From Rhina ancylostomus (Eukaryota), in contig JARFYF010000002.1 in assembly GCA_030265395.1 (NCBI GenBank), positions 53,947,792 to 54,011,791 on the forward strand: 64,000 bases of DNA. Reading direction: 5' to 3'. How positions within the stretch are numbered: the stretch's first letter is position 1; each line of letters begins with the position of its first letter. The notes under the pieces were generated by a model. It made no database searches. It saw only the letters and a program-made list of their open reading frames with translations, and was not told where the DNA came from. Positions 2,084 through 59,090 of this stretch are shown here, one piece after another. The position numbers and the translations under genes were made by a program.

Positions 2084-2121
2084 CAGTCCTGATGAAGTGT
2101 CTCGACCTGAAACGTTGACTG
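2084..2121 (+). ncRNA. Minimal type-I hammerhead ribozyme-like motif in a Penelope-derived repeat (repeat extends to about 2210)
   Basis: CAGTC-CTGATGA-AGTGTCTCGACCT-GAAAC-GTT-GACTG: perfect helix I (CAGTC/GACTG), core CUGAUGA and GAAAC, palindromic helix III. Helix II is imperfect and the triplet is GUU. Confidence 0.6.
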
Positions 2122-3499
2122 TTTATTTCCCTCCATAGATGCTGCCTGACTTACTGAGTTCCTCCAACATTTTGTGTATGTTGCTCTAGATTCCAGCATC
2201 TGTAGAATCTATTGTGCTCTTCTAGTCTGCGTTTCTGGACTATTTATCATTCTGAGATTGAATTTCTTCCAGCAGATTCATCACTTGTATAAAATCTAGT
2301 TTGTAATTTAGACTTTTTCTATACAATGGTAACTACTACTGGGTTCATGCATACATCAGATTTTCAGGAATTAAAAGTTGATTTGGGTATAGCTGATATA
2401 AAAAGTCCTGATAAGGAAGCACATTGTTTGCCGAGCAGAAACTGGGTGTATCCAGCTTTTAAAAGATATGTGCACTTGCACATTAGTCACTGCAGTTGTG
2501 AAATTCTATAAATATTTAATGTAACTGTTGGGTTTTAGTATTCGATAGTTACTCACAGTTTTGAAATTTAGACAAAGTTTTAATAATTTTATAAAATGCT
2601 TGAAAATCCGCTCTAATTATAGTTAATGCTAAAATTTGAAGTAAGCTCTGGTATTGTTACAAGAATGTAAGATTTTGCAGTCCAATTGATATTTTTGTTT
2701 CTGAAGAGATCATGTCTGAAACCTATAGGTTTTACTGTCTGCTGGTCATTGATCAGTCTAATAGCTTATGCATTAAAAATGAGATGATCAGGCTGTGATA
2801 TCTCCCTGTCCTTTTCTTTTATCTTCTCACTTTCTGCACAGCCATTTTGGTACTTGCCCTAGAATTCAATTATCTGCTTTTTTTTTTGTTGGAGATATCT
2901 GGATTTGATTTTCCTGTCTCCAGTGTTCAATCGTTTATCAATTTATGTTAAGTCTGAATTTGAGGAAAGAAATACATTTTATCAATTTTGTGTTGTAATC
3001 ATATTAGATTTAAAATAAATTCCAGAGCATTTTAATGTGAAATTCAGGTTCACCTTTTGCAAATACATTTAGAAAACTCCAAATTTTTAATGTAAAAACA
3101 GCAAAAGAAATGTGATTACAATATTGCTGGACATTTTCCCCCAAGTGCTCTGCAGGCTAGTAGGTTGACTGTTGGTTCAGCGTACATTAAATAGGAACAA
3201 TGAGGATGCTTTCTCTTCTTGTGAGGACTTGTGAAGAATTCTTGGCTTCAAACATTAGTGCTTTCCCTTCATGGAATGAGCATCATCCTTAATGGGGAAG
3301 CAATTACATAGGCCTCTTAACTCAGGCTATGTTTCCAAATACTGTACTTCCTGAATTTGCATCGCAGTCATTCTGCTGGTTGTGTCTTCATTTGTTAAAA
3401 CACCGAGCTCTGGAATTGCGACCCAAAATCTCCCTACCTTTGTTCTACTTTTAAAATGTTCCTTAAATCTTGTTTATTTAACCAAGCTGTTAGTCTTCT

Positions 3500-3902
3500 A
3501 ACGAACCAGCAACAAAAGAAACACACGGTCATGTAGAAGTGTTTAAAAACTACTTTTTTTCTTATTATCATAAGTAATTATTAATAATAAAAGTAAAAAT
3601 GTTAGAATGTTAGAAGTAAAAATGTTAAATCTTAAACATTAACCCCAAAAACTAAACTCATGGTGTGTGTGTGTGTGTGGCAAATTCCCAAACTCCAGAT
3701 TAATAAAGATGCATGTCTTCTATTTAACATTGGGAAAGTCTCGCTCTCTCCCTCCCTTCTTCCCCCTGCCCTTCCAGATTGACTGCTTCAAAAACATCAT
3801 TGCGTCCTTTATCTTCTGTTGTTGTAACCATGCCCCACACACACACCCACCCCATGCTCTTTCTTAAAGGGACATTCACCAATAGTAATCTAGTTTGTAA
3901 CA
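3500..3902 (-). mobile_element. LTR-like interspersed repeat (same family as 49150-49570)
   Basis: 3500-3697 is the reverse complement of 49401-49570 (e.g. ggcaaattcccaaactc / gagtttgggaatttgcc); right end ...TGTAACA. Confidence 0.55.
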
Positions 3903-6900
3903 AGCTGACATCTTAAATATCTCCTATAATAAAAGAGAAAATGCTGATACATTAAGCAGTTTAGGCAACATTTGTAGGGCGAGAAACGGGAATCGCTTAT
4001 GATTTAGACTTTTATCAGAACTAAGAAAAATTAGAAACCTACAATACTAAGTTGCTCAGAAATCATGAGGAGTGGACAGAATTGAAGGAATGTCTGTTAT
4101 GGAGTGGAGATAACTTTCAAAATCAGTGAGTACAGCAAAGCTCAGATATTTATTTTAATTTCCAAACTATGACAGTAATGGTACTTTGCAGATGAATATT
4201 GCTGATCACAGGGCTATTCTTCCTGACTTCCTGGTCAACAGTGTCTAAGAGTCCAAATATCAAGTTAAAGAGGGAGGACTGACAATATTTTAAATAAGGG
4301 AAATATTTCTGAACAAATTCTAACATAAGCAGATTAAGTGTTTAATAATTGAAGATTTCCCTCTAATATCTTTGATTTTTAAATTTGGGTTTTATTTAGA
4401 ATTTTTAATAATTGATCATGTAAGTCTTCAGGTGACGGGGCTTTAAGTTCTGGGAGCTAATTGGATCAAGTTATGTAGATGTGGTTCAATGCCCATTTTA
4501 AAGTTGCACTGTTATTTAAATATTTCCACAATGGATGGGAAGCATTTTGTGGGAGAGGAGATGGACTGATTGCAGTGGCAGCTGAGGGCAAAAAATGAAG
4601 GGGAGAGTGGAGATACAAAGATAGAAGAGTAAGGATGGGAAGTGGCAGGGGAAAAGTAGGTAGCAACCAATGGAGTAAGGAATAGGCTGTGTGGATATGG
4701 TGGCAGCTATAAAGCTGATTATCTTTTGAGTGAAGGAGGGATGTGCTTATGTAGTTCTCTTACTATAGATGATGCAGATTAGAATGTGATTTGGAATTCA
4801 GTGAAAGTCACAGTTGAGATTAAGTGCTTAAGGCTATTTTTTTTTGCTTGAAGCTGAGAGGTTTTCCAGGTGGAAAGAAAGTGGCAGTTTGAGCTTTGTA
4901 TAATAATAAAAAAAAATGCCCAGTTTCAATTTTCAGAAGAGGACAGGGCTGAACAAATTATATCCAAATGGCATCTGTTCTGTTCTCTTGAGTGGGAGGT
5001 TGTCCTGGAGCTGAAACCATTGGGTATTTTGAGCAGCACTTGACATAGGCATTCCTGGGTCACATGCTGCCATTTGTTTTGCTTCATCAGGATCATGTCA
5101 GTTGCACTGTCAATTCAGAATTGACTAATACTCCACCCAGCTGTATATGAGGAACTTCATTTACAAAAAAGGCTGCTTGTTAATCTGCATTTCAAAGCAC
5201 AACCATACTGGGCCTGTAATGTTTTCCTTCAGGATGGCCTCTCAGTATGGGCAAAGAAATAGGTCAGAGAATGGGGTTATAGCCTCTTCAAACTAGTAAT
5301 TTTTTTCTTAATTGTAAATGGTGCATTAAGAGTTGATGGAATTTCTGGGAACATAATGTTAAATAGCTTTAAGAAAACACTTTTTGAGGCTTAAGTTTTC
5401 AGCTGCAAGTCAATTAAAATTTCAATATGGCAATCACCAAGAAAAGATGGCAGGAAGTTTTTAATACATTTATTAAGAGTTTTGAAGTTATCTAATGCAA
5501 TAAAGATAGCACTTATATTGGGCTTCAGACAAGAAGCAACTTAGCATTTTTTGACGTGGACTGAAACCAGCAGTGTCCCAGACTGCGAGACCTGAGCATT
5601 GGAGATAGGCAAGAATGATGGAGCAGAGGCCAATGGAAAGGGGTCGCTTGATCATGGTGCAGAAGAGTAGTTCTTTAAAGTCTTCTGGGTGAGAGGAAGT
5701 CTCAATGTTTTTTTCATTTTCATTGTGGGGTAGGGGGTGGATTAGGTTGGTGGACAGTCAAATTCACTAATTTTTGAGAAGTGGTATTAGGCAGCTAGTG
5801 AAATCAAAATGCCAACATTTTCTTCAGATCATTGTAGGAACATATTAGAAGAGGGAAGGTAACACCAAGAAATCTGGGAAACTTGTAGGATGGTCTTGCA
5901 AGCAGCCTACTTGAAAATGTCTTGTCTGTGTTGATGTTTACTCTTGTTGAATTTGGGTGCTTTTTCTAAAACAAAGTACCTATTTTAAAAAAAAAAGTTT
6001 CATATCTGGAAACGCATGTTCTGTGGAAACAGAGCTAACCTACTTCAATCACCAGCTTATAGGAAATTGTGCAGAAAGCACTGCGCTTGTGGTAGACTAT
6101 GGATGTGAAGTATTACACGAGGATTTTGTTCTCTATCAATATTGCTCTGCTGATGTATGGAGTTAAGTAAATCCCATTTCTCCTAAAAAGAATTGTCAGT
6201 GTTGGAGTGGTAGTTTTGGTGAAATGGTGAACCATGTTAAATAGCAATCTGACATTCATAGATCTGGGAGTTTTCCTCATGAATTTTTTCATAATGTTAG
6301 CAAATTAAAACAGGTCAAAAACATTTAAATATAACACTAGAATAATGTAATATGGTCTGGAATTTGCAGTGACATTAATAGAGAAGCTACAAAAACTTCC
6401 TATGGAGTTTGCCCATGTACAGTTACTGCTTAAGAATCCAGAATTTGCTGTTAATAATTCCCTGCAGCTTCATAGTATGTCTTGTTGAATATTCGGTATA
6501 GTTGGGGGAAACTGACAAACTTAGTTCATGAACTATTCCTCCTGTTTTAAAAAAAATGCCATAGAAAAATGTCTCTTGAATGTGAAGGAGCTGAGTTTTT
6601 AATGGCATACTAATCATAATCATGGCATAGTTGCCCTTCTGTCCCTAAAAATTTTTATAGATTATAAACTACCCTCAGTTTATTTTTAAATTACTTGCTT
6701 TTACAAATCTAATTTTTTTTAACTTGACATTTTAGCTTGTACTGTAATTTCTTGATCTCAAATATTTCATTATGCTCTTAATTACATTTAAAAAAAAGTC
6801 ACTTAACAGTTGATGCTTATTTACTCTTTGCTTTACAGTCTGTGAAACTACATGGCTATGCAACCAACATGGCATATTCCAACTCTCATATACTGGGCAG

Positions 6901-7134
6901 TTTCCGTTAAGGTCAGCAGTGAGCTTTAGTGCTACTGACTATAAAATCCCAAGTCGGCATGTATTTTGCATGTGCAGGCAAAAAAAACTTTCAGAAACAC
7001 TGGGGCAAATGTATCTTTTAACAAACTGAATTAAATTCATGATTTTACTTCTGATTAACAGTCTTAAAATAAGATTATTTGTTTAACCATAGCCAGTTTT
7101 TCTTTGTTTTTATTTAATAATGAATCCTATTTAG

Positions 7135-7352
7135 GTAATGATGCACAGTGCGCAACCATTGACTGGAACCAATGGAAGAAGGTGCAAGGAAGATGAGAGA
7201 TTGATTAATGCCACTCTACGGGCAGGGAAGCGTGGTTATATAATTGACACCAGATCAATTACTACTGCTCAGCAAGCGAGAGCCAAAGGAGGTGGCTTTG
7301 AGCAGGAAGCACATTATCCTCAGTGGCGACGAATTCACAAGTCCATTGAGAG
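7135..7352 (+). CDS. MTMR9: MTMR9 coding exon (about exon 5)
   Basis: tag|GTA...AG|gtaagt, 218 nt; VMMHSAQPLTGTNGRRCKEDERLINATLRAGKRGYIIDTR...IHKSIER. Confidence 0.95.
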
Positions 7353-7919
7353 GTAAGTAATCACCACAGCTGTTCATTTTATACTCATTGTATAAGCACT
7401 TGTCCATGCTGTATGGTGTGCAGAAGGATGTTGTTTTTGTTTGGAACAATTTGGCTAAAACACTTAAAAATGCAAGCTTACAATCAAAATTATGTTGGTC
7501 TGAGTTCTCTAAAAAGGACCACTAAATATAACATTGCCTCCTGAGCTTTGGAAACTAGAATCCATGAGTATTTTAATGAAATAAAAAGATGTAATCAAAC
7601 AGAAAACCAATCTGCTTTATTCCATGTAATATATACAGTATAGTACTAATTCTTAATATGATGTACATTTTCTGATTATATAAACCATACCTTGAGTTTT
7701 TAATGTTCACACTATTAGTGAGAAAAGTAATATGTCAACATTGATTGTCCCAAAGTAACTGTTGGCATCTGATAAGGCAGTGCCCTCCTTACTCATTTCC
7801 CATATGTACTCTGGAATCTATAAGAAACCAAATAACTTTTAAAACACAATTAACAAATATTTATATCCTGAGTGAGACATGACAGGTGGGAACTATCCAG
7901 CTCAAAGAACAAAGTGGAG

Positions 7920-8050
7920 GTGCAAGAGACTGCAGATGCTGGCGTCTGGGTCCTGATGTGGGTCTCAGCCCAAAGCATTGACAATTCCTCTCCCTCCACA
8001 GATGCTGCTGAACCTACTGAGTTCCTCCAGCAGTTCTTTTTTTTCAAAGC
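7920..8050. mobile_element. Penelope-derived short element, fold-back arrangement, decayed hammerhead motif
   Basis: Minus-orientation end (gactgcagatgctgg) joined to plus-orientation GTCCTGATG-TGGGTCTCAGCCC-AAAGCATTGAC and the family tail ccacagatgctgctga..ctgagttcctccagca. Confidence 0.6.
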
Positions 8051-9759
8051 ACAAGGTAGGGGTATACTTAAGTAGTGGCAAACTGGAAGAAGAATTCTAG
8101 GGGTAGGATTCATCTTTGAGAATGAGCTAGTCCAGTAACTTGGTGATTTCTTTTTTATTATTTCTCTAATGGGATGAGCAAATGTGTTATGACAAACATG
8201 GTCATAGAGCATTGAAACAAGCCCTTTGGCCCAACTGGTCCATGCCAACCAAAATTCTCATCTAAGCTAGATCCTAGACAAATACAAGGCTTATGACAGT
8301 TTTGAAGATGTTAGTTTTGCAATAGCTAGGGGCAACAGTGAAGTACAGTAAAACTCAGATAATCTGGCATCTTTGGAACTTTGGTGCCAAACAGGCAAAT
8401 TTGTAAACTATTGGATGTTATTCCTTTTAATACACCAAAACGCTTTTAATTTGCTCTTATTTTTTAGATATTACACGGTAATATTGATAAATTTCCTAGT
8501 ACACAGAATGAGTTTAAAGGGAATGTGGGAAACAAAACATAGTGTTTTAAAGGAGCAAGGCCTTTGTGTGTTAAAATGAGTGTGGGAAGAAGGCCTTGAC
8601 GNNNNNNNNNNNNNNNNNNNNNNNNNNNNNNNNNNNNNNNTAGTGGAGTTTTTCTGTAGTATGTGTGACATTCCTATTATATTTATTGTCTACCATGCTT
8701 GACTTTGACTACTTTTCACTGCTATGTATTCTTTTATTAGAAATGTGCAAATAAAATTGACAAAAATAAAATCTGGAAGGATAAAATTGTCTCAATTGTG
8801 ACTAGTAGTTTCCCAATGTCATTATTGATACAATGTGATATCATTCCCTCATACTGGATACATTTAGGCTAATGGGGGAAAAATAAGGCAGGTGGGAGGG
8901 AAGGTTTGTAACAATGCTTTACCACGAATGGAAAAATGCTGTCTTTCAGCTGAAAGGAAGACATGAAAGAAAACACAAATGACATGGTTGAAATAACAGC
9001 TAACTGTAAATTATTGAAAAGGAATCCAGATCTGAAATAGAGCTTCATGGACATGATTGGGTAGGGTAGGATGTGGTTAATTAGGTCATACATAAAACCA
9101 ATTTTAAAGTCAAACCGTTTAAAAGGCTAATATATTTTGGTATGCTGCAGTCTTTTTAAGAAAGTGAAAGCAAATTTTCACAGTGGGAGCACAGTAAACC
9201 ACCTGCTGAGCCATCGAGATTTCCAAATGGTGTATTCTCAGAGTTTGACTATTTATTCTGATTAACATTCCTCTTTTGCTGCTCAAAGGATGCTTGCATT
9301 TAAACAAAATCTGGCTGTACTTAATAAAAAGGGATACTAAAGTATTGAAACCTAGTATAGATTTGAGCCACTGGCCACACTATATCTGCCTAAGTATCTG
9401 TCAGAAAATGGTTATGGTTGGAATTTAAAATTGTTCAAAAATGAAGACTGAGACTCCAGTATTACTCCTGCTCCGAAACCTAGCTAAAATTATATTATTT
9501 AAAGTGTGCTAAGAGAGAAAAGTGGAAAATTTGATGTCTAGCTGCTATGGACTGGTAAATATTATAGTAGGGTTCTTGCACAAAAAAGAGGCAAGTAAGG
9601 TGAATCAATTTTATTGATGGTTGATTGTTTTTGGGATGATACAAAAACGCTGTCACACAGATCCTTAAGTGCCTTATGCAAGTACCTTATGCGTGGCTTT
9701 TATATATCCTAAGTACAAGGAACTTTCATGGTTGCGTATTATGTGTTTGTTTTAATCAG

Positions 9760-9921: not shown

Positions 9922-11572
9922 GTAAGGTCTTGTTTCATAAAAGCCCAGAATGGCACACTGCACGTCATGCTGGGAACTAACTCTTTGGTGAACTTATCCA
10001 GTTAATCTGACTTCATATTTTCAGCCATTGATTAATGCCCTTGAATCTGTTTCCACAACCTTTTCAAGTAATGCGTTTCAGATCACTACTACTCGGATAT
10101 TTAGAAAAATGTTCTGTCGAGGATTTCTGTGCCTATATCCTCATGTCGTATTTCTCTCATCATTCTTCCTATTAAAGCACACCACTTCTATGCTAAATTT
10201 CTTCTGTCATGTGTCTGCCTTTTCAGAAAATGCTCTCTCCCTCTCTTATCTGCTCCATTATTGACGACTTTTGTGTCATCAGCAAACTTTGAAATTATGC
10301 CTTCTGTACTAACTGTTTACTGTTTGTATGTCCATAACAGCATCTCATTTTCCAGGCTTGATATCAAATTCTCTAACTTTAGATAACTTCTTTCTTCTTG
10401 TCTATTTCTGCCTGCCATCCTTTTCTGTTTTCCTCCCTGTGTATAATCTGGCTTTATGGGCATATCCCGCTATGTCAGAACTACCTCAGCAATAAATTAC
10501 ACAGCCATAGTAGCTTAACCTTATCCCACCAGCCACATGGCTTCATTCTTTCCCTTGATTTCACCCATTTTGCTGCTAGCTAAACAAAATTCTTTCTCTC
10601 TTCCTCAGGTCTGCTAAGGGGTTCCCTTGTCTGAAATGTTAACTGTTTCTCTTTCCACTGCTGCTGCCCGACTTAGTTTTTCCAGCATTTTCCATTTTCT
10701 GCTTTTTTATCATGTGGGCTCAGTTTGGTTTTTATCCAACTAGTTAAATCCTTCCTGCCAAGCAGATCCCACCACCTTGCCATTAACAAATCATTATGCC
10801 ACCCAAGAAGCTTAATGTACTAGTGACTGCCATTAATCTATTTTGACTTATTACATTTGTTGTACACATCCCTCCTCACCTCTCCTACTGAAAACTAATT
10901 TGTGTCTCTATTTTCGAGAACTGCCAAAGCCAACTGCCAAACTGAAACATTGTTCTCTTTCCACAAATGCTACCTTACCTGAGATTTTCCAGCATTCCTT
11001 CTTGTTTCAGATTTTTTTCTGTTTACAATAATGAAGCACTTTTTGATATCAGATGAATATTTTTTATTATGTTTTAATTGGGATTATCAACTGACAAACT
11101 TGCTTATTTTCTGTGACTGTACTTAATTCATGACTTTCTCTAGTGATTCTGACTATAAGCTGTCTTTCCTCATTCTAATGAATTATCAATGTATTTGCTT
11201 TCCAATACTTGCCTGTCAGCAAAATGTTAAAAATATGATTACTCCTAACTTTGTTAATCATTCAGAAAATGTCTTTGTAGCTCTTGCAGCATTTAATGTC
11301 AGGTCATAATTTGAATTTATGAAATACAGCATTGAAAGTCTCAATTCATTTTGCTTTGGATCAATTCTAGTAGAGATTAAAATAATTTTAATAGCAGAAG
11401 CATTTTATTTGGAACTGTAACATGCTTTATACCAAACGTAGGGGGAAGCAATGTTATGTGTTTTTTTGGCTCTGTGAATGTTGATCGTTGGTATTCAACA
11501 TTGTGCTTTTCTTGAGTTAAGTCATAGTACAACCTACATTCTTTTGAAACATACTTTCTGTTCCTCTTTTAG

Positions 11573-25299: not shown

Positions 25300-26520
25300 A
25301 ACCTATTGTAACGCCACATGGCGTCTCTGATAATTGTATCCACACGAAGTGAAATTTATTAGGTTCTGTTCAGTGCGACGGAGTAATTTCCCCATCGCGG
25401 CAGCCGGAATGCCATCTGATACTGCAATGAAAGCGATGTGGAAAAGTCAGAGCAAATCTAGCAACCTGCGCCACGTGGGGACCTGCCCCTGGGTTGCTAG
25501 GACACTGCGGGTGGATCGACGTCGCTGGGATACGGCCAGATGACTGACGTCGACGCTTTCCCAGCGGGACCAATGAGCGTTGAGGCTTTGGCAAAAAGAG
25601 CCAATCATATTTCAGACAGGCACACGGTTCCGCGGGATAAAAGACGCGTGAAGGCGGCTGATGCAATCTAAGTCGCGACGCGTGTGGAGGGCGGTTGGGC
25701 CGGTTGCTGACTCAGGTAGGACGGAACCTCGGGTGGTGGGTTGGGCACAAGCTGGGATCAGGAAAGCATCCATTGCAAACAACTCCTTCCCCAATGGGTC
25801 TGGCTGCCTGCGAGGGATCGGAAAAACAAGAATATAAAGGCTGATGCTGGAAATCTGACATTTAAAAAAAAGGGAAAAAAGCTGTTAGTGCAAAGCGGGT
25901 CGGGCAGCGTCTGTGGAGGGAGGAAGTGAACGTTTGGACTCGGTCCGCCTCAGGATCTGCGCTGGTTGTGGAGCGGGATGAAGTGCGCTTGACTCCCGGG
26001 GGATGATATAGCAGATGGCTGCAGCGCAGGGTGGGATTGACCGGGGCTGGGGCCCGGGCCGGCGAGTAACGGTCCCTTCACTTGAGCCGGTGCTGGGCTC
26101 ATCCGTGATGGTGCTGGCTCCTTGATACCACGTCCATCTCCTGTGCTAGCCCTGGGGGTTCCCGTTGTTTCACCCGTTTGAGTCGCCGGCTGTTTTCAGA
26201 GTCCACTGTTTGGGAATTGAACTGGACGGGGCATTGCCGAGATACCGTGAAAGTCAGGCTGGAGCAGGGAACCTTTCCAGTAACTTTATGCGCTTAACCA
26301 TGTGCCAAACAACTTCCATCACAACTAAACTTGGAATGCAGGATCACGGGGAGACACGAGTGTGTGACGCAGGGATCTCTGTGCAGTTTGGCCATAATGT
26401 CAGCCGACAGCAGAGTCAAGCCTTCCCCGCCCCCGTCTCTTCTCCCCGTAGAACAACGGAAAGTACGGGAAATACTCAGCGGGGCAGCAGCGTCTGTGGG
26501 GAGAGAAACGGCAAACGTTT
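25300..26520 (+). promoter_or_regulatory. CpG island and putative TDH promoter
   Basis: Sharp CpG/GC enrichment in AT-rich background. E-box CACGTG 25472-25477, CRE-like TGACGTC 25545-25551, CCAAT 25570-25574 and 25601-25605, GATAAAA 25636-25642, TGATGCAAT 25659-25667, TGCTGACTCA 25705-25714. Confidence 0.8.
25665..25715 (+). other. TDH: Candidate non-coding first exon of TDH (start approximate)
   Basis: The first coding exon has a splice acceptor 9 nt before its ATG, so an upstream exon is implied; a donor CAG|GTAGGA at 25715/25716 lies downstream of the promoter motifs. Confidence 0.45.
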
Positions 26521-26635
26521 TAGGACGATGGAATGTCATCGACCTAAAACTCCGTTTTCCTTTCCACAAATGGTGTCATGTACTATTTCCGGCATGATCT
26601 GTTTTATCTCTGGTTTCCAGATCTGTAATTTTCGT
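26450..26635. mobile_element. Penelope-derived short element, fold-back (inverted arms)
   Basis: GTTTTAGGACGATG (26517-26530) pairs with CATCGACCTAAAAC (26537-26550); the outer arms are the family tail in opposite orientations. Confidence 0.55.
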
Positions 26636-33866: not shown

Positions 33867-34049
33867 TGAGGTTAAAATGGGTTTAAATGAGATTAAATTA
33901 AAAAGAAAATTGCTGGAAAGAGCCAGAGAGATAACTGCTTCTCTCTTCGTGCATGGTACCTGACTTGCTAAGTATTTCCAGCATTTTGTTGTATTTCAGA
34001 TTTCCAGCATCTGCAGTACTTTTCTGCTGGACTTGAAGGCGATGATGAG

Positions 34050-43810: not shown

Positions 43811-44307
43811 AATGATTTAAACCCATGTGTTTAAATTTCCATTCACAAAACCTGCAATGTTGATTTAATGGATTTGCGAATAGCAAAAGAAAACAAAATA
43901 GAAATTAGGATAATATGATTGCAAGGGCAATTCATTATTTGATGTTTGAAGGAACGAGAGTTATAAGGGAAATCCACTGAATACTTGACCCTTATGGGAA
44001 GGAGGAACACCCCAGAAGAGCTGTGGAGGGATGAGAAAAGTTGCTAGAAAACCTAGGGTACAGTACAGAGAGAAAAAGGATATCTTTTTGACAAGTACAG
44101 TTCCATATTTATGTTCTATGTATTTACTGGATGTATACTTATTTGGGAAGGTCAGCATTCATTACCCAATCACAATAAAGGAACATTAATATTTCATTTT
44201 GGAACGTTGTTTAACTTGGGAGTACCATCGGCTGCCAGTTTCTCTCCAGGTCATTGTTCTAAATGATACAGGTTGTACATTTCAAATGAGCTGTTTTTAA
44301 AAAAAAA

Positions 44308-44505
44308 GAGACATAAAACATTGCAGATGCTGGAATCTGGAGCAAAAAAAAGCAAATTGCCAGAGGAACTCAGTGAGTCAACCAGCATTTATGGAGGCAA
44401 AGGGATGGTCAACATTTTGGGTGGAGACCTTGCATCAGGACCATCAACCATACTTTTGCCCCCACAGATGCTGCTTGACCCATTGAATTCAGCAGTTTGT
44501 TGTTT
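44308..44505. mobile_element. Penelope-derived short element, fold-back arrangement
   Basis: Minus-orientation unit 44308-44441 (ends ttgcatcaggac) directly followed by a plus-orientation tail catcaacc...cacagatgctgcttgaccc. Confidence 0.7.
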
Positions 44506-45069: not shown

Positions 45070-46375
45070 GATCAATGCTGGGACCTTTGCTGTGTGTGAT
45101 TATATGTTAATGACTTGGATGTGAATGCAGGAGGTATGATTGGTAAGTTGGAGACACAAGACAGCAGATGCTGGAATCTGGAGCAACAAACTGCTGGAGG
45201 AACTCAATGAGTCGAGCAGCATCTGTGGGAGGAAATAAATTGTTGATGTTTTGGGTCAAAATTGCATCAGGACTGCATGATTAGTAAATTCCTGGATTAC
45301 ATGAAAATTGGTAGGGTGGAAAGTTACTTGAGGCTACAGATCAGTTGGAAAGTTGTGCAGAGCGTTAGCAGATAGAAGTGTGAGGTGATGCAGTTTGGGA
45401 AGTCAAATTGGGGTAGGACATTACAGTAATATGCTGATGAAAGAGACTTAGGAAACCAAGTCCATAGTTCTCCAAAACTGGCAACACAGTTGGATAGGGA
45501 GGTGAAGGCAGTATATGGGATGCTTGACTTCATAGGTTGGGACATAGCATATTAGAATTGGGACATTTTGTTGCAACTTTACAAAACACTGGTTAGACTA
45601 CAGCTACTTTCAACCATCTAATTCTTGAACCAGCTGGCAAAATCCTAATCACTACAGTTTAGCAACACCATGACCATTTTGATCACTTTGCACTAAACTG
45701 GACTTTTCTTGTTGTTCTNNNNNNNNTCGTTCTTTTAAAAGTTGTGTTTAGTTTGTTTTTCTTGTGAATGTTGCTTATACGATGTTATACGTGTCTGTGA
45801 TGCTGCTGCAAGCAAGTTTTACGTTGCACCTGTGTATACATGTACTTGTGTACATGACAAACCTTAGGAGTATTATGTGCAGTTCTGGTTACACTGTAGG
45901 AAGGATGTAAATGGTCTGGAGAGAGTGCAGAAGAAATTCACCAGAACCTTGCCTGGATCTGGAGGATTTTAGTCGTGGGGAGAGATTGGATCGGCTGGGC
46001 TTGTTTTCCCTGGGGGGAAGGAGACTGAGAGGTGACCTGACAGCGCTGTGTAAGATTATGAGAGGCATAGATAGGATGGATAGTTGAGATCTTTTTCCCA
46101 TAGTAGGGGTGCCAAAAACATGAGAGCATAACTTTAAGGTGAGAGGTTGGAGCTTTAACGAGGATCTGAGGGGTAAGTTTTTTTTTACATAGTGGTTGAT
46201 ACCTGGAACGCACTGCCAGAGGTGGTGGCAGAATCTGGTACAATCATTACATTTAAGAGACATTTAGAACGACACTTCAATAGTCAAGAACTAGAAGGAT
46301 ACAGACATAATGTGGTCAAATAAGATTAATGTAAAAGCAAAAAGGCCTGTTTCTGTGGTGTGCAAACCTGTAACT
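45070..46375 (+). mobile_element. CR1-type LINE RT/3' fragment with two nested insertions (Penelope-derived end 45151-45275; Rex1-like tail about 45601-45860)
   Basis: The CR1 motifs atgattagtaa.tt, ggttagacta|...|ggagtattatgtgcagttctgg and gactgagaggtgacctga are interrupted by unrelated repeat ends. Confidence 0.7.
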
Positions 46376-46775
46376 AAATGCAATTAGACAGACAGATGTA
46401 AGAAAAACTTTCAATAAAGCAACACTCCTGCAGTAGTTAAACTAAAAGAGCAGCTATGATTATGTTTTCAGTTTCTAAGATTTTATTCTATAACCTCTGG
46501 GATAAACATGCTTGCACACAGACAAATATCACACAATGATCATGTAAGGCATTTCATGGGCTTTCTATTGCATTAAATCCAATAAAGTAACATAAAGTAT
46601 CATACCATGCTTGTTCTGGGTTAAGAAAGGAAAGGATTTCATATCCACAGGTAAAATAAAAAAAATTATGGATAAGCAGTTGGGCTTTGAATTCATTGTT
46701 GGTGAAATAGTGACATATTTCATGGAGATGTCATTCATCTGCCTGGATCTCTGTGACATCTTTCCTCTGTACTCT

Positions 46776-46865
46776 CAGTCCTGATGCAGGGTCCCAACCC
46801 ATAACATCAACCATTCCTTTGCCTCCACAGATTCCTTTGACTCACTGCAGTTTGTTTTTTGCTCA
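46776..46865 (+). mobile_element. Penelope-derived short element with decayed hammerhead motif
   Basis: CAGTC-CTGATGC-AGGGTCCCAACCC-ATAAC-ATC followed by the family tail cctttgcctccacagat. Confidence 0.6.
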
Positions 46866-47592
46866 ATATACCAGTTCTTAATACCATTAGTTGACCATGC
46901 AAATCATAACAAGAGGGAGTTGCTGTTGATGATTTTGCCACTGGTATTACAGTTTCTTGGAAAGTTGCAGGTTGGTAGGTTTATTGGATAGAGTAAATTG
47001 CCCCTAATGTATGGCTGAGTGGGAGAATCTGGAGAAAGTGATGGGAATATGGGGACAATAAAGTAGGGTTCATGTAAGACTGGTGCAAATGGGTGCCTGC
47101 GGATTGTCCTTGACTTGGTGGGCAAAAGGGGGCTGTTATTGTGCTACATGAAAATCTATGACATACACTCAAGACTGTAAACAATGTCACCCTTACTGCT
47201 CATGTCAATAATTATTATTATACACATGTAGTATGCATTTCAAAGTCAAGTTTATTGTCATATGCACAAGGAAATATATGCAGAGGTACAATGAAAAACT
47301 TACTGGCAGCAGCATCACAGGCACATAGTATCATATAAGCAGCATTCACAAGAAAACCATAAGTTAGCATTTGCCAGACCAATTAGTATAAACCAGGCAC
47401 AACAATAGCTTTCTTGGGTAGGTCTGTGTTTCCACTCCATTGCGGGTTATGAGATGGCTGATGAGGCCAATGTGCAACCCACTGACTCAGCCATGAGAGG
47501 GCTGGAGGTTATTGACATGGCAGGCAGGTGGGTAGCTTGGGAAGTGCTGGGTTTACCTCCAACCAAGCAAAAGAGGCCAATAAAAGATTAAG

Positions 47593-47975: not shown

Positions 47976-48467
47976 TGTCCTCCTTAATTACTTGCTGCAC
48001 CTGCATGCTCACTTTTGTGTTCCATGCACAAGAACATTTAGATTCCTCTCTACTTCATCATTTGCAGCTTCTTTCTATTTAGACAATCATCTACTTTTTG
48101 AATCTTTCTACCAAAGTGCATGGCCTCACACCTTCCTTCATGAATGGAATGTGCTCTGTGGCCTTCAAATAGAGAGCATCAGTGATGTCCCTCCCACGTC
48201 AAAGAATGATAAGTAGCAAGGTATTTAAAATGTTCCAGCTCAAGCCTGGAAGATCCAGATGCATAAAATTCAATTGGCATGATAACCTAGACAGCATTCC
48301 TTAGACTGGTCTGAAGCGCAGTTGAGGCTGGAAGAAGTGAGAGGTTTTGGTGAAAGAACACTAATGTCTCATATACAGTTGCTCATTGAAGAGAATTGCT
48401 CCTGAAGCAACAAACAATCTGCAGGAGGAACTCAGCGGGTCGAGCATTATATATGGGAGGAAAGGAA

Positions 48468-48505
48468 TTGTTGAGGTTTCGGGTTGAAACCCTGCATCAG
48501 GACTC
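48468..48505 (-). ncRNA. Hammerhead-like motif in a Penelope-derived element (element about 48400-48560)
   Basis: Minus strand GAGTC-CTGATGC-AGGGTTTCAACCC-GAAAC-CTC-AACAA; helix II GGGTT/AACCC intact, helices I and III decayed. Confidence 0.45.
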
Positions 48506-49149
48506 CAGTAGATTGTTTATTGCTCCATATTCTAACATCGGCAGTCTCTTGTGTCTTAACTGCTCCTGACTATCCTCATAGAAATGGCCTCCTGTTGAGA
48601 CTCTTTCTATTAGTCCTACTACTTTGCTTTCCAGCAGCCTGTCCTGTTCTGTTTGTCCTCTACTCATATATTCATCCCCAGATAATGAACAGGTTCCGTT
48701 TTTACAGACATCGTGAGGTCGATTTTGTCCATAAGTCGGAAAATACACAGAAATTACTCGATGTGACAACCATACCTCCACAGTGTTGTACTGAATGGCA
48801 TCTAAGACACAGCAGACTGATAAGAAAGAACAATCACTTAAAGTGGAGAGAGAAATGAAACTAGTTCTGCCATTGGTAGGAAAGAATATATATGCATGTT
48901 GGACTTCTGAATTTAACAATAATATGGGGACTCGTTCATATGTACAGGCATCTGTAGGTTGGGTTCATAGCCCGGGGATGGCCTGTACTCCAATCATGCT
49001 GTATTCTAAGAGTGTTGCAAACTAATGCACCAAATTTGATTTGTGCTAAAGCTTCAAGTGCAGCAAACAATCCTTCAGCCCCACCAACATAACTCAATGT
49101 AGACCTCTGTAAACTGAAAGAACTCTGGAAATTACCAAACACATGGGAT

Positions 49150-49570
49150 CACAGCAATAGCCAGAAGAAATCTAACACCAGCTGATCTGCAAGTAATGAA
49201 TTATCCTTATAGTAGAGCTGGTGGGAGCGGCTGCTCAGCCGTGCACGTTTAAGAAAGGGCATTAGTTTCAGAGTTGAGTCTGGGAAATCAGAATTCAGAT
49301 NNNNNNNNNNNNNNNNNNNNNNNNNNNNNNNNNNNNNNNNNNNNNNNNNNNNNNNNNNNNNNNNNNNNNNNNNNNNNNNNNNNNNNNNNNNNNNNNNNNN
49401 GAGTTTGGGAATTTGCCACACACACACTTTGAGTTTAGTTTTTGGGGTTAATGTTTAAGGTCTAACAATTTTACTTTTATTTTTCTTATTATCATAAGTA
49501 GTTATTAATAAAATAATTTTTAACACTGATACATGACTTGGTATGTTTCTTTTGTTGCTGGTATGTGACA
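49150..49570 (+). mobile_element. LTR-like repeat (same family as 3500-3902), with internal gap
   Basis: AATAAA near the 3' end and terminal ...TGTGACA; homologous to the inverted copy at 3.5 kb. Left boundary uncertain. Confidence 0.55.
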
Positions 49571-50647: not shown

Positions 50648-52689
50648 CAATCTATTTGACAAAAATATGAAAAATAAAATCAGTTGCTGTCCACTAGTAA
50701 TTTGGAGTTATTACAACATGTAGTTATTACAGCATGTTTAAAACCAAGAACCTAACAAAGAGAATGCATTAGAATTTATATGAGAACTAAATGGAAGAGT
50801 TACTTCATAAAGGACTCAATAAGCATGGTTAGCATTGATTTATAAAGTGCAACATATGAAAGTGTTAACTTTAATAAGTCTAATTTGAAGATACTATTAT
50901 TAGAAAAAGCTGGGAGGCACGGATCCATATATAAAGGACTATTATTAAATAGCATTTTACATCACAGAAGTAGGCTATTCAGCCCAATAGATCTATGCTC
51001 ACACAAACTTCCTTTATAGTATGTGTTCTTTTCTCCCTTCTGTAGTTACCTAGCTTCCTCTTATATCAATTTATTTACATCAATTAGTCACCACTCTATG
51101 AATAAAAGAATTTCTAAATTTCTAATTTGACTATGTTATATTTATGACCTCAGCTTTCAGAATCCCCCACCCAACCACTGTAAAAATATTTTCTCTTTTT
51201 TTCAGAATCTCCCACCCAATCTCATTGAACCCTTTCATAAGTTTGAAGATCTCCATCAGGTCACCTCTCTAGAGTTATATTGGTGATTGGTTCAATATTT
51301 ACCCTTCATCAATATCACAGGTAACAGATAATCTGATCCTCGTCACAGTGCTGTCTGTGATGAATTGTTTCTGCAGTTTCTCTCTTGCAAATGATTTATG
51401 TATTCAAGGAGTAGGACTTGAACCCAAACCTAGGATGGTGCAGAGTCAAGACGTGAAGAGTCAACCATTCCTTTGCCTCCACAACTGTTGCTTTATCCAC
51501 TGAGTTCCTCAAGCAGTTTGTTTTTTTTTACTTGATTCCAGCATCTGCAGTCTCTTATACCTCCCTTCCATACCAACATGGCAGCTGGTTGGTAGACTGC
51601 TCTGCAGCAGCACCTAGTGGCTATACATGAACTTGCATTTAATGCCCCTCTGGTATTTTTTAAACTTTATGGTATCAGTCAGTAATTGGCATCATTTAGA
51701 AGTTCTTGTTAATCTTTGAAAATCTATCAAATTGACAACTACACATGAGAGGTACTACATGTAAAGACTGACACCTGCATGTGTCCTTCAGACATGCTGC
51801 AAGACTGGTAAACCATGAAGCGATTTTAAAAAGATAAAAGTTGCATACAAGTTATTCTAAAAACTGATAAAATTAAATTGACTGACACCTCTATAAAAGA
51901 AGTCATGTTAAAGCTGTATGTAAATCATTTTACAGGGAGTCATTTAAACTCCTAATGAATAACTCTCTGTACTGTAACAACTAAGAACAGAAAATTATAA
52001 TTAAAAAGCAGAAAAACACTAAGTAGAGGAACCAGCATCCGTGGAGAGGGAAACCACTTTCTGATAAAAGACCTGATAATTGACCCGATACATTAACTCT
52101 GCTACCTTCTCCATTGGTATTACTTGTTCTGCTAAATATTTCCAGCATTTTTTCTCTGCATAATTGTATTCTTAGAACATTCTACTCTATAACTGTAATA
52201 CCCTTGGCTTCTTAATATCCAGCTTCTAATTGGGAGGCGGAATATTCCACCCACATAGTAAGCAAAAACATGAAGTAGCAATTCCTGGACACAGATTGCA
52301 AGTGGTTCTTGAGTCATCAGCTGGCAATGTTTTTCATTATGTGTAGGGGCACATCGCACTCCATTTTCCCCAAGTGAGACGTAATGGTTTGCCTGAGTTC
52401 GATACAGCGTAACTTGGAAAAATGCTTGGATGAAAAAGAATAGTCAGAAGAGATGGCACAAGCTGCAAAACTGAGAGAGACAGTTCCAGTTGGGGAAGAC
52501 AGCAAGAATAATCTGAGCAACAGGGCTGGGGGCAGCATCAAGATGGAGCCATGGGAGACTTTGCAGAAATACTGTAAGTCAGGAATTACATTGTTAACTT
52601 TGACAAGTGTGAGGTGTTGATTTTGATCAGTTACAAACCAGGATATATTAAATGGTATGGCCCTGGACAGATTTGTAGAACAGAGAGAC

Positions 52690-53783: not shown

Positions 53784-53830
53784 GGCGCCGGGGCAACGGT
53801 CCGGGCGGGCGGGCGCCGGGGCAACGGTCC
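53784..53830. repeat. GC-rich 28-bp-period minisatellite running into a gap
   Basis: GGCGCCGGGGCAACGGTCC at 53784-53802 and 53812-53830, then 301 N. Confidence 0.7.
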
Positions 53831-54141
53831 NNNNNNNNNNNNNNNNNNNNNNNNNNNNNNNNNNNNNNNNNNNNNNNNNNNNNNNNNNNNNNNNNNNNNN
53901 NNNNNNNNNNNNNNNNNNNNNNNNNNNNNNNNNNNNNNNNNNNNNNNNNNNNNNNNNNNNNNNNNNNNNNNNNNNNNNNNNNNNNNNNNNNNNNNNNNNN
54001 NNNNNNNNNNNNNNNNNNNNNNNNNNNNNNNNNNNNNNNNNNNNNNNNNNNNNNNNNNNNNNNNNNNNNNNNNNNNNNNNNNNNNNNNNNNNNNNNNNNN
54101 NNNNNNNNNNNNNNNNNNNNNNNNNNNNNNNTCTTTCTTCC

Positions 54142-54179
54142 CAGTCCTGATGAAGGGTCTCGGCCCGAAACGTCAACGG
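54142..54179 (+). ncRNA. Minimal hammerhead ribozyme-like motif in a Penelope-derived element (element to about 54250)
   Basis: CAGTC-CTGATGA-AGGGTCTCGGCCC-GAAAC-GTC-AACGG: intact core, helix II and GUC triplet; helix I has 2 mismatches. Confidence 0.65.
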
Positions 54180-54519
54180 TTAATTTCCCTCCCTGGATGC
54201 TGCCTGACCTACTGAGTTCCTCCAGCACTTTTTGTGTATTGCTCCTCAACATGATGTTTTGATCAGATCTGAAAATACTACACGGACGGAGCTCTCACTT
54301 GGTTGCTGCTTTTGAAAGCACATTTCAGTGATAGGAGAATTTTGCATTTTGCCCATTCCCACAACTTTCATTTTATTCAGTTCTTTTAACCAAAGTCCAC
54401 TGTTTTCGAGGAGCATTATCAGATAAAGTTTGGCACTGAGTTATACAGAGCAGATGGCCAACTTGACCAAGTTATATGGAGTGATTTAAAGGAACAAAAA
54501 GTGAGAGAAGCTGGGGTGG

Positions 54520-56234: not shown

Positions 56235-57069
56235 ATGCCCATCCATGCTAATTCCATTTGCCTGCATTTTGGCCATAACCTTCTAAACCTTTCCTATCCA
56301 TGTACTTGTCCAAATATCTTTTAAACAATATAATGGTACCTGCCTCCACCATCTCTTCTGGCAACTCATTCCATATACCCGCCACCCTCTGTGTGGAAAA
56401 CCCTGCCCTTCTGGTATCTCTCCATACTCACCTTAAACCTATGCCATTTTGTTTTAGACTCCCCTACCCTGGGAAAAAGACTGTGACTATCTATGTCTCT
56501 TAATTTTGTAAACCTATATAAGGTCATCCTTCAGCTTCCTTCTCTGCAGGAAAAATGGTCCCAGTCTATTCGAACTTTCATTATAACTCAAGCCTTCCAA
56601 TCCAGGCAACATTACTGTGAATCTTTTCTGCACCCACTCTAGCTTAACTACATCCTTCCTATAGCCTGGTGATCAGAACTGCACACAGTACTCCAAGTGT
56701 GCCTAACCAACTATTTGTACAACTATGACAAGACATCCCCACTCCTGTAATTAATGGCTCAGCAGATAAAGACAAGCATGCCATATGCATTTTTCACTCT
56801 CTGTGGCCACTTTCAGACAACTAGGAACTTGTACCCTAAGGTCTCACTGTTCAATAACGTGTCCCAGGGCCCTGCCATTCACCTTGTACGTCCTGGCCAT
56901 TTTTAACTTCCCAAAATTGCATCACTTTACACTTGCCTGAATTAAATTCCATCTGCCGTTCCTTTCCCCACTTCTGCAGTTGATCTAGATCCATTTGTAA
57001 TCTTAGAAAACCTTCTTGTATACCACCAATCTTGGTGTCATCTGTAAACTTACTAGTCATGACACCTAG
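56235..57069 (-). mobile_element. CR1-type LINE RT/3' fragment
   Basis: Minus ORF MTSKFTDDTKIGG...LQMDLDQLQKWGKERQMEFNSGKCKVMQF is a CR1 RT signature. Confidence 0.85.
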
Positions 57070-59090
57070 AGAAACAAAAGACTGCAGATGCTGGAATCTG
57101 AATGAAAACTATGATACTAGAGGAACTCAGCAGGTCAGGAAGCAGGCAGTCAATGTTTTAGGTCAGAGCTCTTCTTCAGGACTGAAGATAAGAAAAGAGG
57201 AAGCCCAATATATAGGAGGGAAAAACAGAGCAGTGTTAGGTAGACAAAAGAGGGGAGGCGGGGTGGGAACAAGGTGGTAATAGGTAGATGCAGGTAAGAG
57301 ATGGTGATAGGCAGGTGCGGGGGAGGAAGGGAGAGCAGATCCACTGGAGGATGGGTCAAAGGTAAGGAGAAAAAGGGGGGTAGAAAAAAGAGAGGCTAGG
57401 AAAGGGAAGAAGAAGCATAATGGGGGGGCAGTGGTGGGGAATTAATTAAATGGGGAAATGCAATGTTCATGCCATGAGGCTGCAAAGTTCCAAGATGGAA
57501 AATAAGGTGCTATTCCTCCAGTTTGCTCTTGGACTTTTGTCAGTGGAGGAGGCNNNNNNNNNNNNNNNNNNNNNNNNNNNNNNNNNNNNNNNNNNNNNNN
57601 NNNNNNNNNNNNNNNNNNNNNNNNNNNNNNNNNNNNNNNNNNNNNNNNNNNNNGGTGCTATTCCTCCAGTTTGCTCTTGGACTTTTGGCAGTGGAGGAGG
57701 CCAAGGACTGGCACATCTGTGATGGAGAGGGAGTTGAAGTGACTGGCAACAGGGAAATACAGATCATGGTTACAGATTGGAGTGCAGGTGTTCTGCGAAA
57801 CAGTCACCTCATCTGCGTTTGGTGTCGCCAATGTAGAGGAGGCAACAGGAGCCTGAGGGCACATACCACCAGGCTCAAGGACATCTTCTATCCCGCTGTT
57901 ACAAGACTATTGAACGGTTCCCTTATAAAATGAGATGGACTCTTGACCTGACAATCAACCTTGTTATGACATTTCACCTTATTGTCTACCTGCACTGCAC
58001 TTCCTCTGTAGCTGTGACACTACTCTGCATTCTGTATTGTTTTTACCCTGTACTACCTCAATGCACTGTAATGAATTGATCTGTATGAATGGTATGCAAG
58101 ACAAGTTTTTCACTGTACCTTGGTACGTGTGACAATAATATACCAATACTTGGAACACCAAGATGATATTAAGGGAGGTGCAGGTAAATCTCTGTCTCAT
58201 CTGAAAGGACTGTTTGGGTCCCTGGATGGAGGTGGTGTAGGGGCAGGTGTTACACCTATGGCAGGAGCAGTGGAAAGTCCCCAGGATGGGTGGGGAAGTA
58301 GCAGCAAACCAGAGAGTTGCAGAGAGAGCAGTCCCTGCAAACGGCAGAAAGGGGTGGAGAGGGGAAGATAAGCTTGGTGGTGGGGTCCCGTTGGAGGTGG
58401 TGAAGAATGATATTTTGGGTATGTGGGCTTGTAGGATGAAATATGAGGACAAGGGGGACCCTATCCCTGTTGGGTCTGGGAGGGGTGAGCATGAGAGCAG
58501 AGGAGCGGGAAATGGCAGGTGCAGTTGTGAGCTCCCTCAACCACAGGGGGGAAGCCACAGTTAGTAAAGAAGCCGGAAATCTTAGATGTCCTGGAGTAGG
58601 TAGCCTCATCATGGGAGCAGAGGCTGAAAACGGGATAGCGTCCTTGCAAGAGATGGTGGGAGGAGCTGTAATCGAGGTAGCTGTGGGCATCAGTGGGTTT
58701 GTAGATATTGGTGGATACGGAATCTCCTGAGATGGAAATGGAAAGATCGAGGAAGGAGAGGGGTATAAGATAGTCCAAGTGAATTGGAGAGCAGAGTGAA
58801 AATTTGTGGTGAAATTTAGGAAACTGTTGAGTTCTGCACAGGTACAAGAGGTGGGACCAATGCAGTCGTTGATATAGCAGAGAAAGAGTTGAGGAATGGG
58901 ATCGGAGTAGGCTTGGAACAAGGACTGTTCAATGTAGCCAATGTAGAGGCAGCCATAGCTGGGGCCCATGTAAGTACCCACAGCTACACCCTTGGTCTGT
59001 AGAAAGTGAGAGGAATTGAAAGTGACATTGTTGAGGGTGAGGACAAATTCAGCCAGGCAGAGGAGAGAGTTAGTGGAAAGGGACTGGTTC
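57070..59090 (-). mobile_element. Penelope-like retroelement (RT, linker, GIY-YIG region and 3' pseudo-LTR), decayed, with nested Rex1-like tail at about 57845-58150
   Basis: Minus ORFs GVAMGTYMGPSYGCLYIGYIEQSLF, FLCYINDCIG (decayed RYIDD), IYKPTDAHSYLDYSS and RCNTCPY..QGPKQSFQMRQRFTCTS; ends in the hammerhead-bearing unit 57070-57184. Confidence 0.85.
57147..57184 (-). ncRNA. Hammerhead-like motif at the 3' end of the Penelope-like element
   Basis: Minus strand CAGTC-CTGAAGA-AGAGCTCTGACCT-AAAAC-ATT-GACTG; helix I perfect, core decayed by CpG-type transitions. Confidence 0.5.

What the first reader, a model, noticed from the sequence alone, without database searches (positions are those of the whole stretch)
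2084..57184. Dispersed family of short Penelope-derived elements carrying minimal hammerhead ribozymes
Seen: at least 8 copies of a 120-150 bp unit (2084, 7950, 44405, 45240, 46776, 48468, 54142, 57147; more degraded at about 10610 and 25930). Their consensus is CAGTC-CTGA(T/A)GA-A-GGGTCTCGACCC-GAAAC-GTC-GACTG, which reads as helix I, the CUGANGA core, helix II, GAAAC, a palindromic ACGU helix III and a GUC cleavage site. Helix II varies while keeping its pairing (GGGTC/GGCCC, GGGTT/AACCC). One copy is the 3' end of a recognisable Penelope-like element. Known: PLE pseudo-LTRs carry minimal type-I hammerheads thought to act as dimers. Inference: these units are dense in this genome, and the two best copies are sense-oriented in MTMR9 (2084) and PINX1 (54142) introns, so they would be transcribed within pre-mRNA.
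Basis: partly seen in the sequence, partly recalled or inferred. Interest (0 to 1): 0.7.

Follow-up and report, generated by a model that had tools for sequence, protein, structure and literature searches.

The report
Decayed Penelope transposon ends carrying hammerheads
These short repeats are real, very abundant end-pieces of a Penelope-type jumping gene that carry a self-cutting RNA motif already described for such elements; the motif is damaged in every copy here and likely inactive, and the main extra is that back-to-back pairs nearly always join one long and one short end, likely because both cut DNA ends were copied separately.

Summary
The repeats are real: 17 fragments in the window, about 450,000 estimated genome-wide. 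They are the terminal ~135 nt (pseudo-LTR plus 'tail') of Neptune-type Penelope-like elements, and their ancestral sequence fits the published minimal hammerhead. The link to host pre-mRNA is not supported. No window copy passes a strict descriptor (2084 breaks helix II, 54142 breaks helix I). Cores decay at the neutral rate. Copies inside genes show no strand bias (50 sense, 55 antisense). The claimed helix II covariation is wobble and CpG decay; only one compensatory change, between subfamilies, was found. Insertion anatomy is more informative. 5' ends pile up at the hammerhead's front edge (32 of 86; 4% expected), not at the cleavage site. 3' ends fall at two sites about 35 nt apart. Head-to-head pairs are long+short in 56 of 61 classifiable cases, often inside a 13-15-bp target duplication, and in 22 of 55 neither arm contains the other. 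This favours priming from both cut ends over fold-back. Two subfamilies with altered cores make up half the copies. The scan reported this family and both traits before, in this genome and others. No RNA data were available.

The parts
2077..2216 (+). Subfamily A pLTR+tail unit with long 3' end; hammerhead relic 2084-2121 (helix II mismatch at 2098, G10.1-U11.1 wobble, GUU site at 2116); sense in a myotubularin-family intron
7923..8043 (.). Head-to-head pair: inverted long-end arm (model columns 106-132) plus forward subfamily D short-end arm from column 8 (7950); near-matching ~13-bp target duplication; the arms do not overlap
10590..10703 (+). Old subfamily C fragment, short end, degraded core
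10939..11012 (+). Weak subfamily C fragment (21 bits)
25840..25955 (-). Degraded fragment (31 bits)
26455..26528 (-). Degraded subfamily C fragment (29 bits)
33895..34023 (.). Old subfamily C long+short head-to-head pair lacking the hammerhead; no target duplication found
44307..44505 (.). Head-to-head subfamily D pair: minus-strand long arm (hammerhead relic 44406-44443, G12 lost) plus plus-strand short arm; weak 12-bp target duplication
45148..45275 (-). Solo subfamily D unit with long end, starting at column 6, flanked by a 14-bp target duplication (2 mismatches); helix II deleted in part, G12 lost
46757..46875 (+). Subfamily D fragment with part of the upstream pyrimidine tract; core broken (G12, A14)
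48402..48556 (.). Head-to-head subfamily D pair: minus-strand short arm from column 7 (hammerhead relic 48468-48505) plus plus-strand long arm (columns 84-137); 12-bp target duplication
51436..51557 (+). Subfamily D fragment, 5' part of the hammerhead lost or degraded
52069..52156 (+). Weak subfamily C fragment (21.5 bits)
54132..54245 (+). Subfamily A unit with short 3' end next to an assembly gap; hammerhead relic 54142-54179 with intact core but C2.1-A1.1 mismatch at 54175; sense in intron 1 of the PINX1-like gene
57068..57186 (-). Subfamily B pLTR+tail ending the Penelope-like element; hammerhead relic 57147-57184 (G12 lost)
57187..59140 (-). 5'-truncated, frameshifted Penelope-like element: RT motifs, thumb, CX4CX2C linker, GIY-YIG part interrupted by a ~300-bp insertion, pyrimidine-rich 3' UTR; antisense in the PINX1-like intron 1

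Best explanation
The units are 3'-terminal pieces (pseudo-LTR plus tail) of Neptune-type Penelope-like retrotransposons whose ancestral sequence fits the known minimal hammerhead; they were likely inserted as short reverse transcripts, and the genomic copies are decaying neutrally and are likely inactive as ribozymes. Shown: identity with the end of RT/GIY-YIG elements; five subfamilies; two 3' end sites about 35 nt apart; a 5' end hot spot at the CAG|UC of helix I; long+short head-to-head pairs in target duplications; neutral decay; no strand bias in genes. Inferred: the endonuclease cuts both strands about 13-15 bp apart. Each freed end primes the RT on element RNA, one at the upstream start site (short arm) and one at the downstream site (long arm with tail). 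Both cDNAs often stop where the template begins or is blocked at the hammerhead's front edge, and they are joined head to head by microhomology. Because most cDNAs run through the cleavage site, the templates would have been uncleaved there. The hammerhead likely mattered only in the master element's RNA (as a dimer, or helped by the element's protein), not in host introns.
For: Same end on a coding element in the window. 17 of 30 GIY-YIG loci have this repeat within 900 nt downstream: B 10, A 5, C 1, D 1; most of the rest end in gaps or contig ends. RT relatives carry RVT_1 and often GIY-YIG; the best named ones are from a shark, 64-67% identical. Differences between subfamily sequences fall mostly at tolerant places: N7, loop 2, H17, outer helix I, and one C-G to U-A swap. 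Per copy: core 144 observed vs 152 expected; G12 kept in 83 of 129; strict descriptor 3 hits in 1.10 Mb, 0 in the window; 50 sense vs 55 antisense. 5' ends: 32 of 86 at columns 5-9 vs 4.1% in a simulated uniform control; 8 of 86 at the cleavage site vs 7.2%. Pairs: long+short 56, long+long 2, short+short 3, 18 with an unclassifiable end, of 79 uncensored pairs out of 87. Target duplication in 29 of 55 long+short pairs vs 0.3% of shuffled flanks. Arms of the same subfamily in 31 of 33 (chance 0.27); short arm reaches >5 nt further 5' than the long arm in 22 of 55. Literature: PMC4209133 (min-HHR, low activity, dimer needed); PMC11167929 (two internal RT start sites, both strands cut and extended, hammerhead mutants still insert); PMC8557442 and PMC3846280 (inverted 5'-truncated copy, one-sided tail, target duplication).
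Against: No cleavage or RNA data; inactivity is inferred. About 3 intact motifs per 1.1 Mb means some thousands genome-wide, two of the three inside genes (one sense, L075). Before base-composition correction the core looked better kept than the tail (9.0% vs 11.3%, p=0.007), and subfamily A cores alone show 7 changes vs 17 expected. The highest-scoring copies in genes lean sense (19:11, p=0.20). Most solo copies show no target duplication at the called boundary (15 of 113 long, 3 of 51 short). [quoted passage not shown] No full-length intact element could be read, because the assembly is gapped inside them.
Confidence: 0.8

Rival explanations
1. Some intronic copies are active ribozymes (alone, in trans-dimers or protein-assisted) that cut host pre-mRNA such as the myotubularin-family or PINX1-like transcripts.
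For: 2084 and 54142 keep all core nucleotides and are sense. Rare intact copies exist. Subfamily A cores show fewer changes than expected (7 vs 17). PAc hammerhead cleaves with protein help (PMC11167929).
Against: Each of the two has a broken helix next to the core. The predicted monomer ground state of an intact A-type copy sequesters the core and is 2.2 kcal/mol below the hammerhead fold; the predicted dimer is a long duplex. No strand bias; neutral decay overall. Monomers are inactive in vitro (PMC4209133).
Confidence: 0.07
2. The inverted pairs arise by fold-back self-priming: one cDNA folds on itself and copies its own partner (the model proposed in PMC3846280).
For: Some junctions are near-perfect palindromes or use helix I complementarity (L019; L274). 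Arms share slightly more private changes than cross-pairs (36 of 437 vs 5.4%, p=0.009).
Against: In 22 of 55 pairs the short arm holds 5' sequence that the long arm lacks, while the long arm holds the tail that the short arm lacks; in 3 the arms barely overlap, including window 7923-8043. Neither arm can then be copied from the other.
Confidence: 0.1
3. The short unit is a SINE-like or retrozyme-like element with its own transcript starting at the CAG of helix I, propagating independently of full-length elements.
For: Sharp 5' hot spot. Target duplications abut columns 6-10 directly in several solos, leaving no room for an upstream exon. D and E make 87 of 166 unbiased copies but 1 of 17 endonuclease-linked repeats.
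Against: About a third of non-C copies (31 of 108 at risk) run on past the hot spot, many into the element's 3' UTR. D and E repeats are also found joined to endonuclease sequence (L335, L107, L267). No tandem arrays (4 of 245). The extra G expected from a cap was not significant once inverted junctions were set aside (counted by eye).
Confidence: 0.2

Closest known systems
Minimal type I hammerheads (min-HHR) in pLTRs of metazoan Penelope-like elements (Cervera and De la Pena 2014, PMC4209133; parts 1-2 of 4 read, supplement file 2 searched, file 1 not searchable)
   Same: No loop 3, palindromic 15.2-16.2, extra nucleotide between the core and G10.1, G10.1-C11.1, short helix I, location in the pLTR, many dispersed single copies tied to truncated elements. 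About 3 strict hits per 1.1 Mb extrapolate to thousands, the same order as the 4,000 (coelacanth) and 9,000 (Xenopus) reported.
   Different: Helix II is 4 bp rather than 7-8 (Schistosoma). No cartilaginous fish in the parts seen. Two abundant subfamilies carry fixed core changes: CUGAUG-C-A with 3-bp helix I (D), and U4 to A (E).
Neptune clade EN+ Penelope-like elements (Craig et al. 2021, PMC8557442; passages)
   Same: RT followed by a CX2-5CxxC linker and C-terminal GIY-YIG with CCHH; heavy 5' truncation; inverted 5'-truncated copy; 30-40-nt tail on one end.
   Different: Neptune was not separated from Nematis by a tree here; the passages give no count of tail asymmetry or 5' end positions.
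PAc Poseidon element of Anolis (Frangieh et al. 2024, PMC11167929; parts 1-2 of 4 read)
   Same: Two internal RT start sites bounding the tail; both target strands cut and extended; hammerhead cleavage not needed for insertion.
   Different: Another clade. It reports no strand difference in start site, whereas pairs here are long+short in 56 of 61.
Adineta Penelope insertions (Arkhipova et al. 2013, PMC3846280; passages) and D. virilis Penelope (PMC2377424 parts 2-3 of 4; PMC4209133)
   Same: Head-to-head pLTRs, one-sided tail, 8-10-bp target duplications; in D. virilis the intron's 3' end maps to the 5' end of helix I, where all five subfamilies here have a pyrimidine tract plus CAG.
   Different: Duplications here are 13-15 bp; self-priming was proposed there, while the arm contents here argue against it for many pairs.
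Non-LTR retrozymes (bioRxiv 10.64898/2026.07.22.740005; part 1 of 5 and passages)
   Same: Non-coding, hammerhead-bearing, derived from Penelope pLTRs; reported in one chondrichthyan genome.
   Different: Retrozymes are head-to-tail tandem units; these are solo or head-to-head.

Membership tests
min-HHR of Penelope-like elements | Core C3 U4 G5 A6 N7 G8 A9 / G12 A13 A14 A15.1 U16.1 H17 in the family sequence | tested here: met
   Met for subfamilies A, B, C and an exact genomic copy (L198)
min-HHR of Penelope-like elements | Same core in subfamilies D and E | tested here: not met
   D has C after G8 in 68 of 73; E has A at position 4 in 38 of 46. D could still keep A9 if the C is a bulge (untested).
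min-HHR of Penelope-like elements | Extra nucleotide before G10.1, G10.1-C11.1 pair, palindromic 15.2-16.2, no loop 3 | tested here: met
   (CpG decay at 11.1/G12 and 15.2/16.2 in the copies)
min-HHR of Penelope-like elements | Located in the pLTR of an RT/GIY-YIG element | tested here: met
min-HHR of Penelope-like elements | Covariation in helices I and II | tested here: inconclusive
   One compensatory swap between subfamilies (2.1-1.1 U-A in C), none in helix II; not above shuffles on 9 window copies
min-HHR of Penelope-like elements | Self-cleavage as a dimer or with protein | not testable with these tools
   No assay; no RNA run listed
Active genomic hammerhead (window copies) | Intact core plus unbroken helices next to it | tested here: not met
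   0 of 17 window fragments
Neptune/Nematis EN+ PLE | RT with C-terminal GIY-YIG and CCHH | tested here: met
   (RVT_1 below cut-off on fragments)
Neptune/Nematis EN+ PLE | CX2-5CxxC linker between RT and EN | tested here: met
   CX4CX2C in the window element and in L311, L312
Neptune/Nematis EN+ PLE | RT phylogeny placing it in Neptune rather than Nematis | not tested
   No reference set; Neptune assumed from vertebrate host (recalled)
EN+ PLE insertion | Inverted 5'-truncated copy, one-sided 30-40-nt tail, target duplication | tested here: met
Non-LTR retrozyme | Head-to-tail tandem units, each with a hammerhead | tested here: not met
   4 of 245 copies have a same-strand neighbour within 60 nt upstream; longer-period tandems were not searched

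The most novel reading that the evidence does not exclude
The short unit is the complete reverse transcript of an RNA that starts at the hammerhead's helix I, and each insertion is written from both cut target ends by a polymerase pair that uses two fixed start sites 35 nt apart, one per end. Hammerhead cleavage is dispensable for this, so lineages with altered cores (U4A; CUGAUG-C-A) could become half of about 450,000 copies. This would explain the one-sided tail and head-to-head layout of Penelope-like elements in general.
Probability: 0.35. Interest if true: 0.55.

Novelty: new member of a known kind. Interest (0 to 1): 0.25.

Why it matters
The finding as stated is a known motif on a known class of element, in a fish group apparently not covered by the founding paper. 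It gives no sign of host function. Its value is as a large natural record of how Penelope-like elements insert, which is still open. The long+short rule and the non-nested arms give a direct prediction for the existing in vitro system. The 5' hot spot points to an unmapped RNA start or block. The D and E subfamilies are natural core variants that could be assayed.

Tried and rejected
Rfam finds no hammerhead in the window, only two chance matches; its models do not capture this minimal form. No RNA holder was listed for window 1000-8500, which says nothing on expression. The two contig sets laid cover the locus, one may be the source sample, and summed depth is no copy number, so I drew nothing from it. 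A pile-up of 5' ends at the cleavage site was tested and not found. A cap-derived extra G: apparent in inverted junctions, where microhomology explains it; 6 of 14 in non-inverted junctions, counted by eye, inconclusive. A shared spliced-on first exon: not visible in 42 non-inverted junctions (by eye, no formal test). Selection against cryptic 3' splice sites: 12 sense vs 12 antisense. 'D and E are non-autonomous': not supported, since both occur joined to endonuclease sequence. No full-length element in 20 stretches, owing to gaps. Pfam did not recognise the frameshifted window fragments. Literature: no paper in the library holds 'U4A' with the other terms; none listed for Penelope-like plus 'twin priming' in a relevant sense; searches gave no account of this family in sharks or rays (listings only). 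Subscription papers and Repbase/Dfam entries were not searchable and may describe it. bioRxiv supplements and supplement file 1 of PMC4209133 were not seen and may hold chondrichthyan or core-variant examples.
Full report
Observation. A profile rebuilt from 193 copies finds 17 fragments of at least 20 bits in the window and none of 15 bits in 1.04 Mb of reversed control DNA. In 40 stretches chosen by round position on large scaffolds it finds 82 fragments in 333 kb of called bases, which extrapolates to about 450,000 fragments (bootstrap 310,000-600,000; the two arms of a pair count separately). Below, 'column' means position in that 136-column profile: the hammerhead runs from column 6 to 43, with the cleavage site between 38 and 39.

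Identity. The copy at 57147-57184 ends a broken element on the minus strand with RT motifs, a CX4CX2C linker and a GIY-YIG region. Of 30 endonuclease loci from the genome, 17 have the repeat within 900 nt downstream; most of the others run into gaps or contig ends. RT relatives are Penelope-type proteins, the best named ones from a shark, so the host is likely a cartilaginous fish. The linker defines the Neptune and Nematis clades (PMC8557442, passages); I made no tree. The unit is therefore the 3' part of the pseudo-LTR plus the tail.

The ribozyme. Subfamily A matches the minimal hammerhead of PMC4209133 in each diagnostic feature. Clustering gives five subfamilies; among 166 unbiased copies of at least 30 bits: C 55, D 48, E 39, A 13, B 11. 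Differences between them lie mostly at tolerant positions: N7, loop 2, position 17 and outer helix I. One is compensatory: C2.1-G1.1 becomes U-A in subfamily C (21 of the 26 cells in its four commonest pair types). That pattern suggests selection on the fold in the master elements, but one swap is not statistical covariation. Helix II shows none. On nine window copies the pair statistics do not exceed shuffles. Two subfamilies have fixed core changes: D has C after G8 (68 of 73) and a 3-bp helix I; E has A at position 4 (38 of 46). Core changes are generally harmful, with rare tolerated natural cases (PMC3088659, passages). Both D and E occur joined to endonuclease sequence, so they come from coding lineages.

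The copies are relics. Four CpG sites lie inside the A-type motif and decay heavily; G12 survives in 83 of 129 copies. Outside CpG sites the core looked slightly better kept than the tail (9.0% vs 11.3%, p=0.007), but this vanishes after correcting for base type (144 observed, 152 expected, p=0.54). Stems show a slight excess of changes (227 vs 196); subfamily A alone shows a deficit in the core (7 vs 17). A strict descriptor finds 3 motifs in 1.10 Mb and none in the window. The 2084 copy has a helix II mismatch; the 54142 copy has a mismatch beside the cleavage site. In 707 kb lying between exons of myosin and myotubularin genes of known strand, copies are 50 sense and 55 antisense (p=0.70), and 19 to 11 among the best-scoring (p=0.20). 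Minimal hammerheads are inactive as monomers (PMC4209133), and same-strand neighbours are rare (4 of 245 within 60 nt). No RNA evidence could be obtained.

How the units were made. 3' ends fall at columns about 101-108 and 135-141, matching the optional 30-40-nt tail and the two internal RT start sites of PMC11167929. 5' ends pile up at columns 5-9: 32 of 86 uncensored ends between columns -40 and 60 in unbiased copies, with subfamily C left out because its upstream consensus is poor. A simulation with uniform truncation puts 4.1% there and places breakpoints within 1 nt at the median. The cleavage site shows no pile-up (8 of 86, expected 7.2%), so the templates were mostly uncleaved. 108 of 245 copies have an inverted neighbour directly upstream, against 0 of 245 shuffled flanks. 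Of 87 pairs, 79 had both ends readable: 56 long+short, 2 long+long, 3 short+short and 18 with one unclassifiable end. In the unbiased set alone the counts were 27, 0, 2 and 11. 29 of 55 long+short pairs sit in a target duplication, mostly 13-15 bp, against 0.3% of shuffled flank pairs; solos rarely do (18 of 185). Arms share a subfamily in 31 of 33 cases, and in 22 of 55 neither arm contains the other. The window holds four such pairs and one solo with a duplication. I infer that both target ends primed synthesis on element RNA at different start sites and that the cDNAs were joined head to head. Fold-back copying, proposed in PMC3846280, cannot give non-nested arms but may explain some junctions.

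What sets the 5' hot spot is open. All five subfamilies have a pyrimidine tract plus CAG there. In D. virilis the intron ends at this point (PMC4209133; intron and promoter in PMC2377424). No shared upstream exon was visible, and target duplications abut the unit directly in several solos. I therefore favour an RNA 5' end (a transcription start) over splicing; a protein block at the splice-site-like sequence remains possible. A cap-derived G could not be shown.

Comparison and verdict. The motif, its place and its mass dispersal are published for fishes, coelacanth and Xenopus; the inverted copy, one-sided tail and target duplication are published too. I found no paper on this family in cartilaginous fishes, on the long+short rule or on these core variants (searches; limited library, some supplements unseen). 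The scan's own notes report the same family, the 5' hot spot and the twin-priming reading in this genome and others. These are unchecked notes, not independent support. My reading was stated before I saw them; the arm-content test was run, where one note points the same way. Verdict: a new member of a known kind, likely inert in the host introns, with modest value for the insertion mechanism. Interest 0.25.

Noticed in passing
The copies at 44.3-52.2 kb are downstream of its stop codon, so in 3' UTR or intergenic DNA.
   Followed up: partly
just upstream of window 2087, 46779, 54145 (+) and 57181 (-): All five subfamilies have a pyrimidine tract plus CAG at the 5' strand of helix I, resembling a 3' splice site (as in D. 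virilis) and also an initiator-like sequence (recalled consensus). Sense copies could act as cryptic acceptors; no strand bias was seen (12:12).
   Followed up: partly
model columns 57-66 and 115-124 of the unit (e.g. window 2135-2202): The tail region folds into a long hairpin in all five subfamily sequences, and columns 59-89 are as conserved as the hammerhead; a candidate binding site for the element's protein.
   Followed up: partly
model column 61 onward (e.g. window 2139-2216): An ATG opens a short frame running through the tail in subfamilies A, C and E and nearly to its end in D; it may be the start of the element's ORF, as in other Penelope-like elements.
   Followed up: no
L012 1391-1629, L169 2088-2281: Some head-to-head junctions hold short extra sense pieces of columns 9-19 between the arms, as if the polymerase restarted several times at the hot spot.
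   Followed up: no
window 57840-58160: A ~300-bp unrelated repeat interrupts the GIY-YIG region of the Penelope-like element.
   Followed up: no
window 3549-3673 and 49417-49516; 34073-34273, 37412-37572, 47615-47916; 45788-46263, 56427-56664: Other abundant repeat families; the one near 3510-3760 is about as deeply covered as the hammerhead unit.
   Followed up: no
L071-L150 vs L151-L190: Fragment density inside the sampled genes (1.48 per 10 kb) is lower than at position-chosen sites (2.46 per 10 kb), on both strands alike; it may reflect chromosome or region differences.
   Followed up: no
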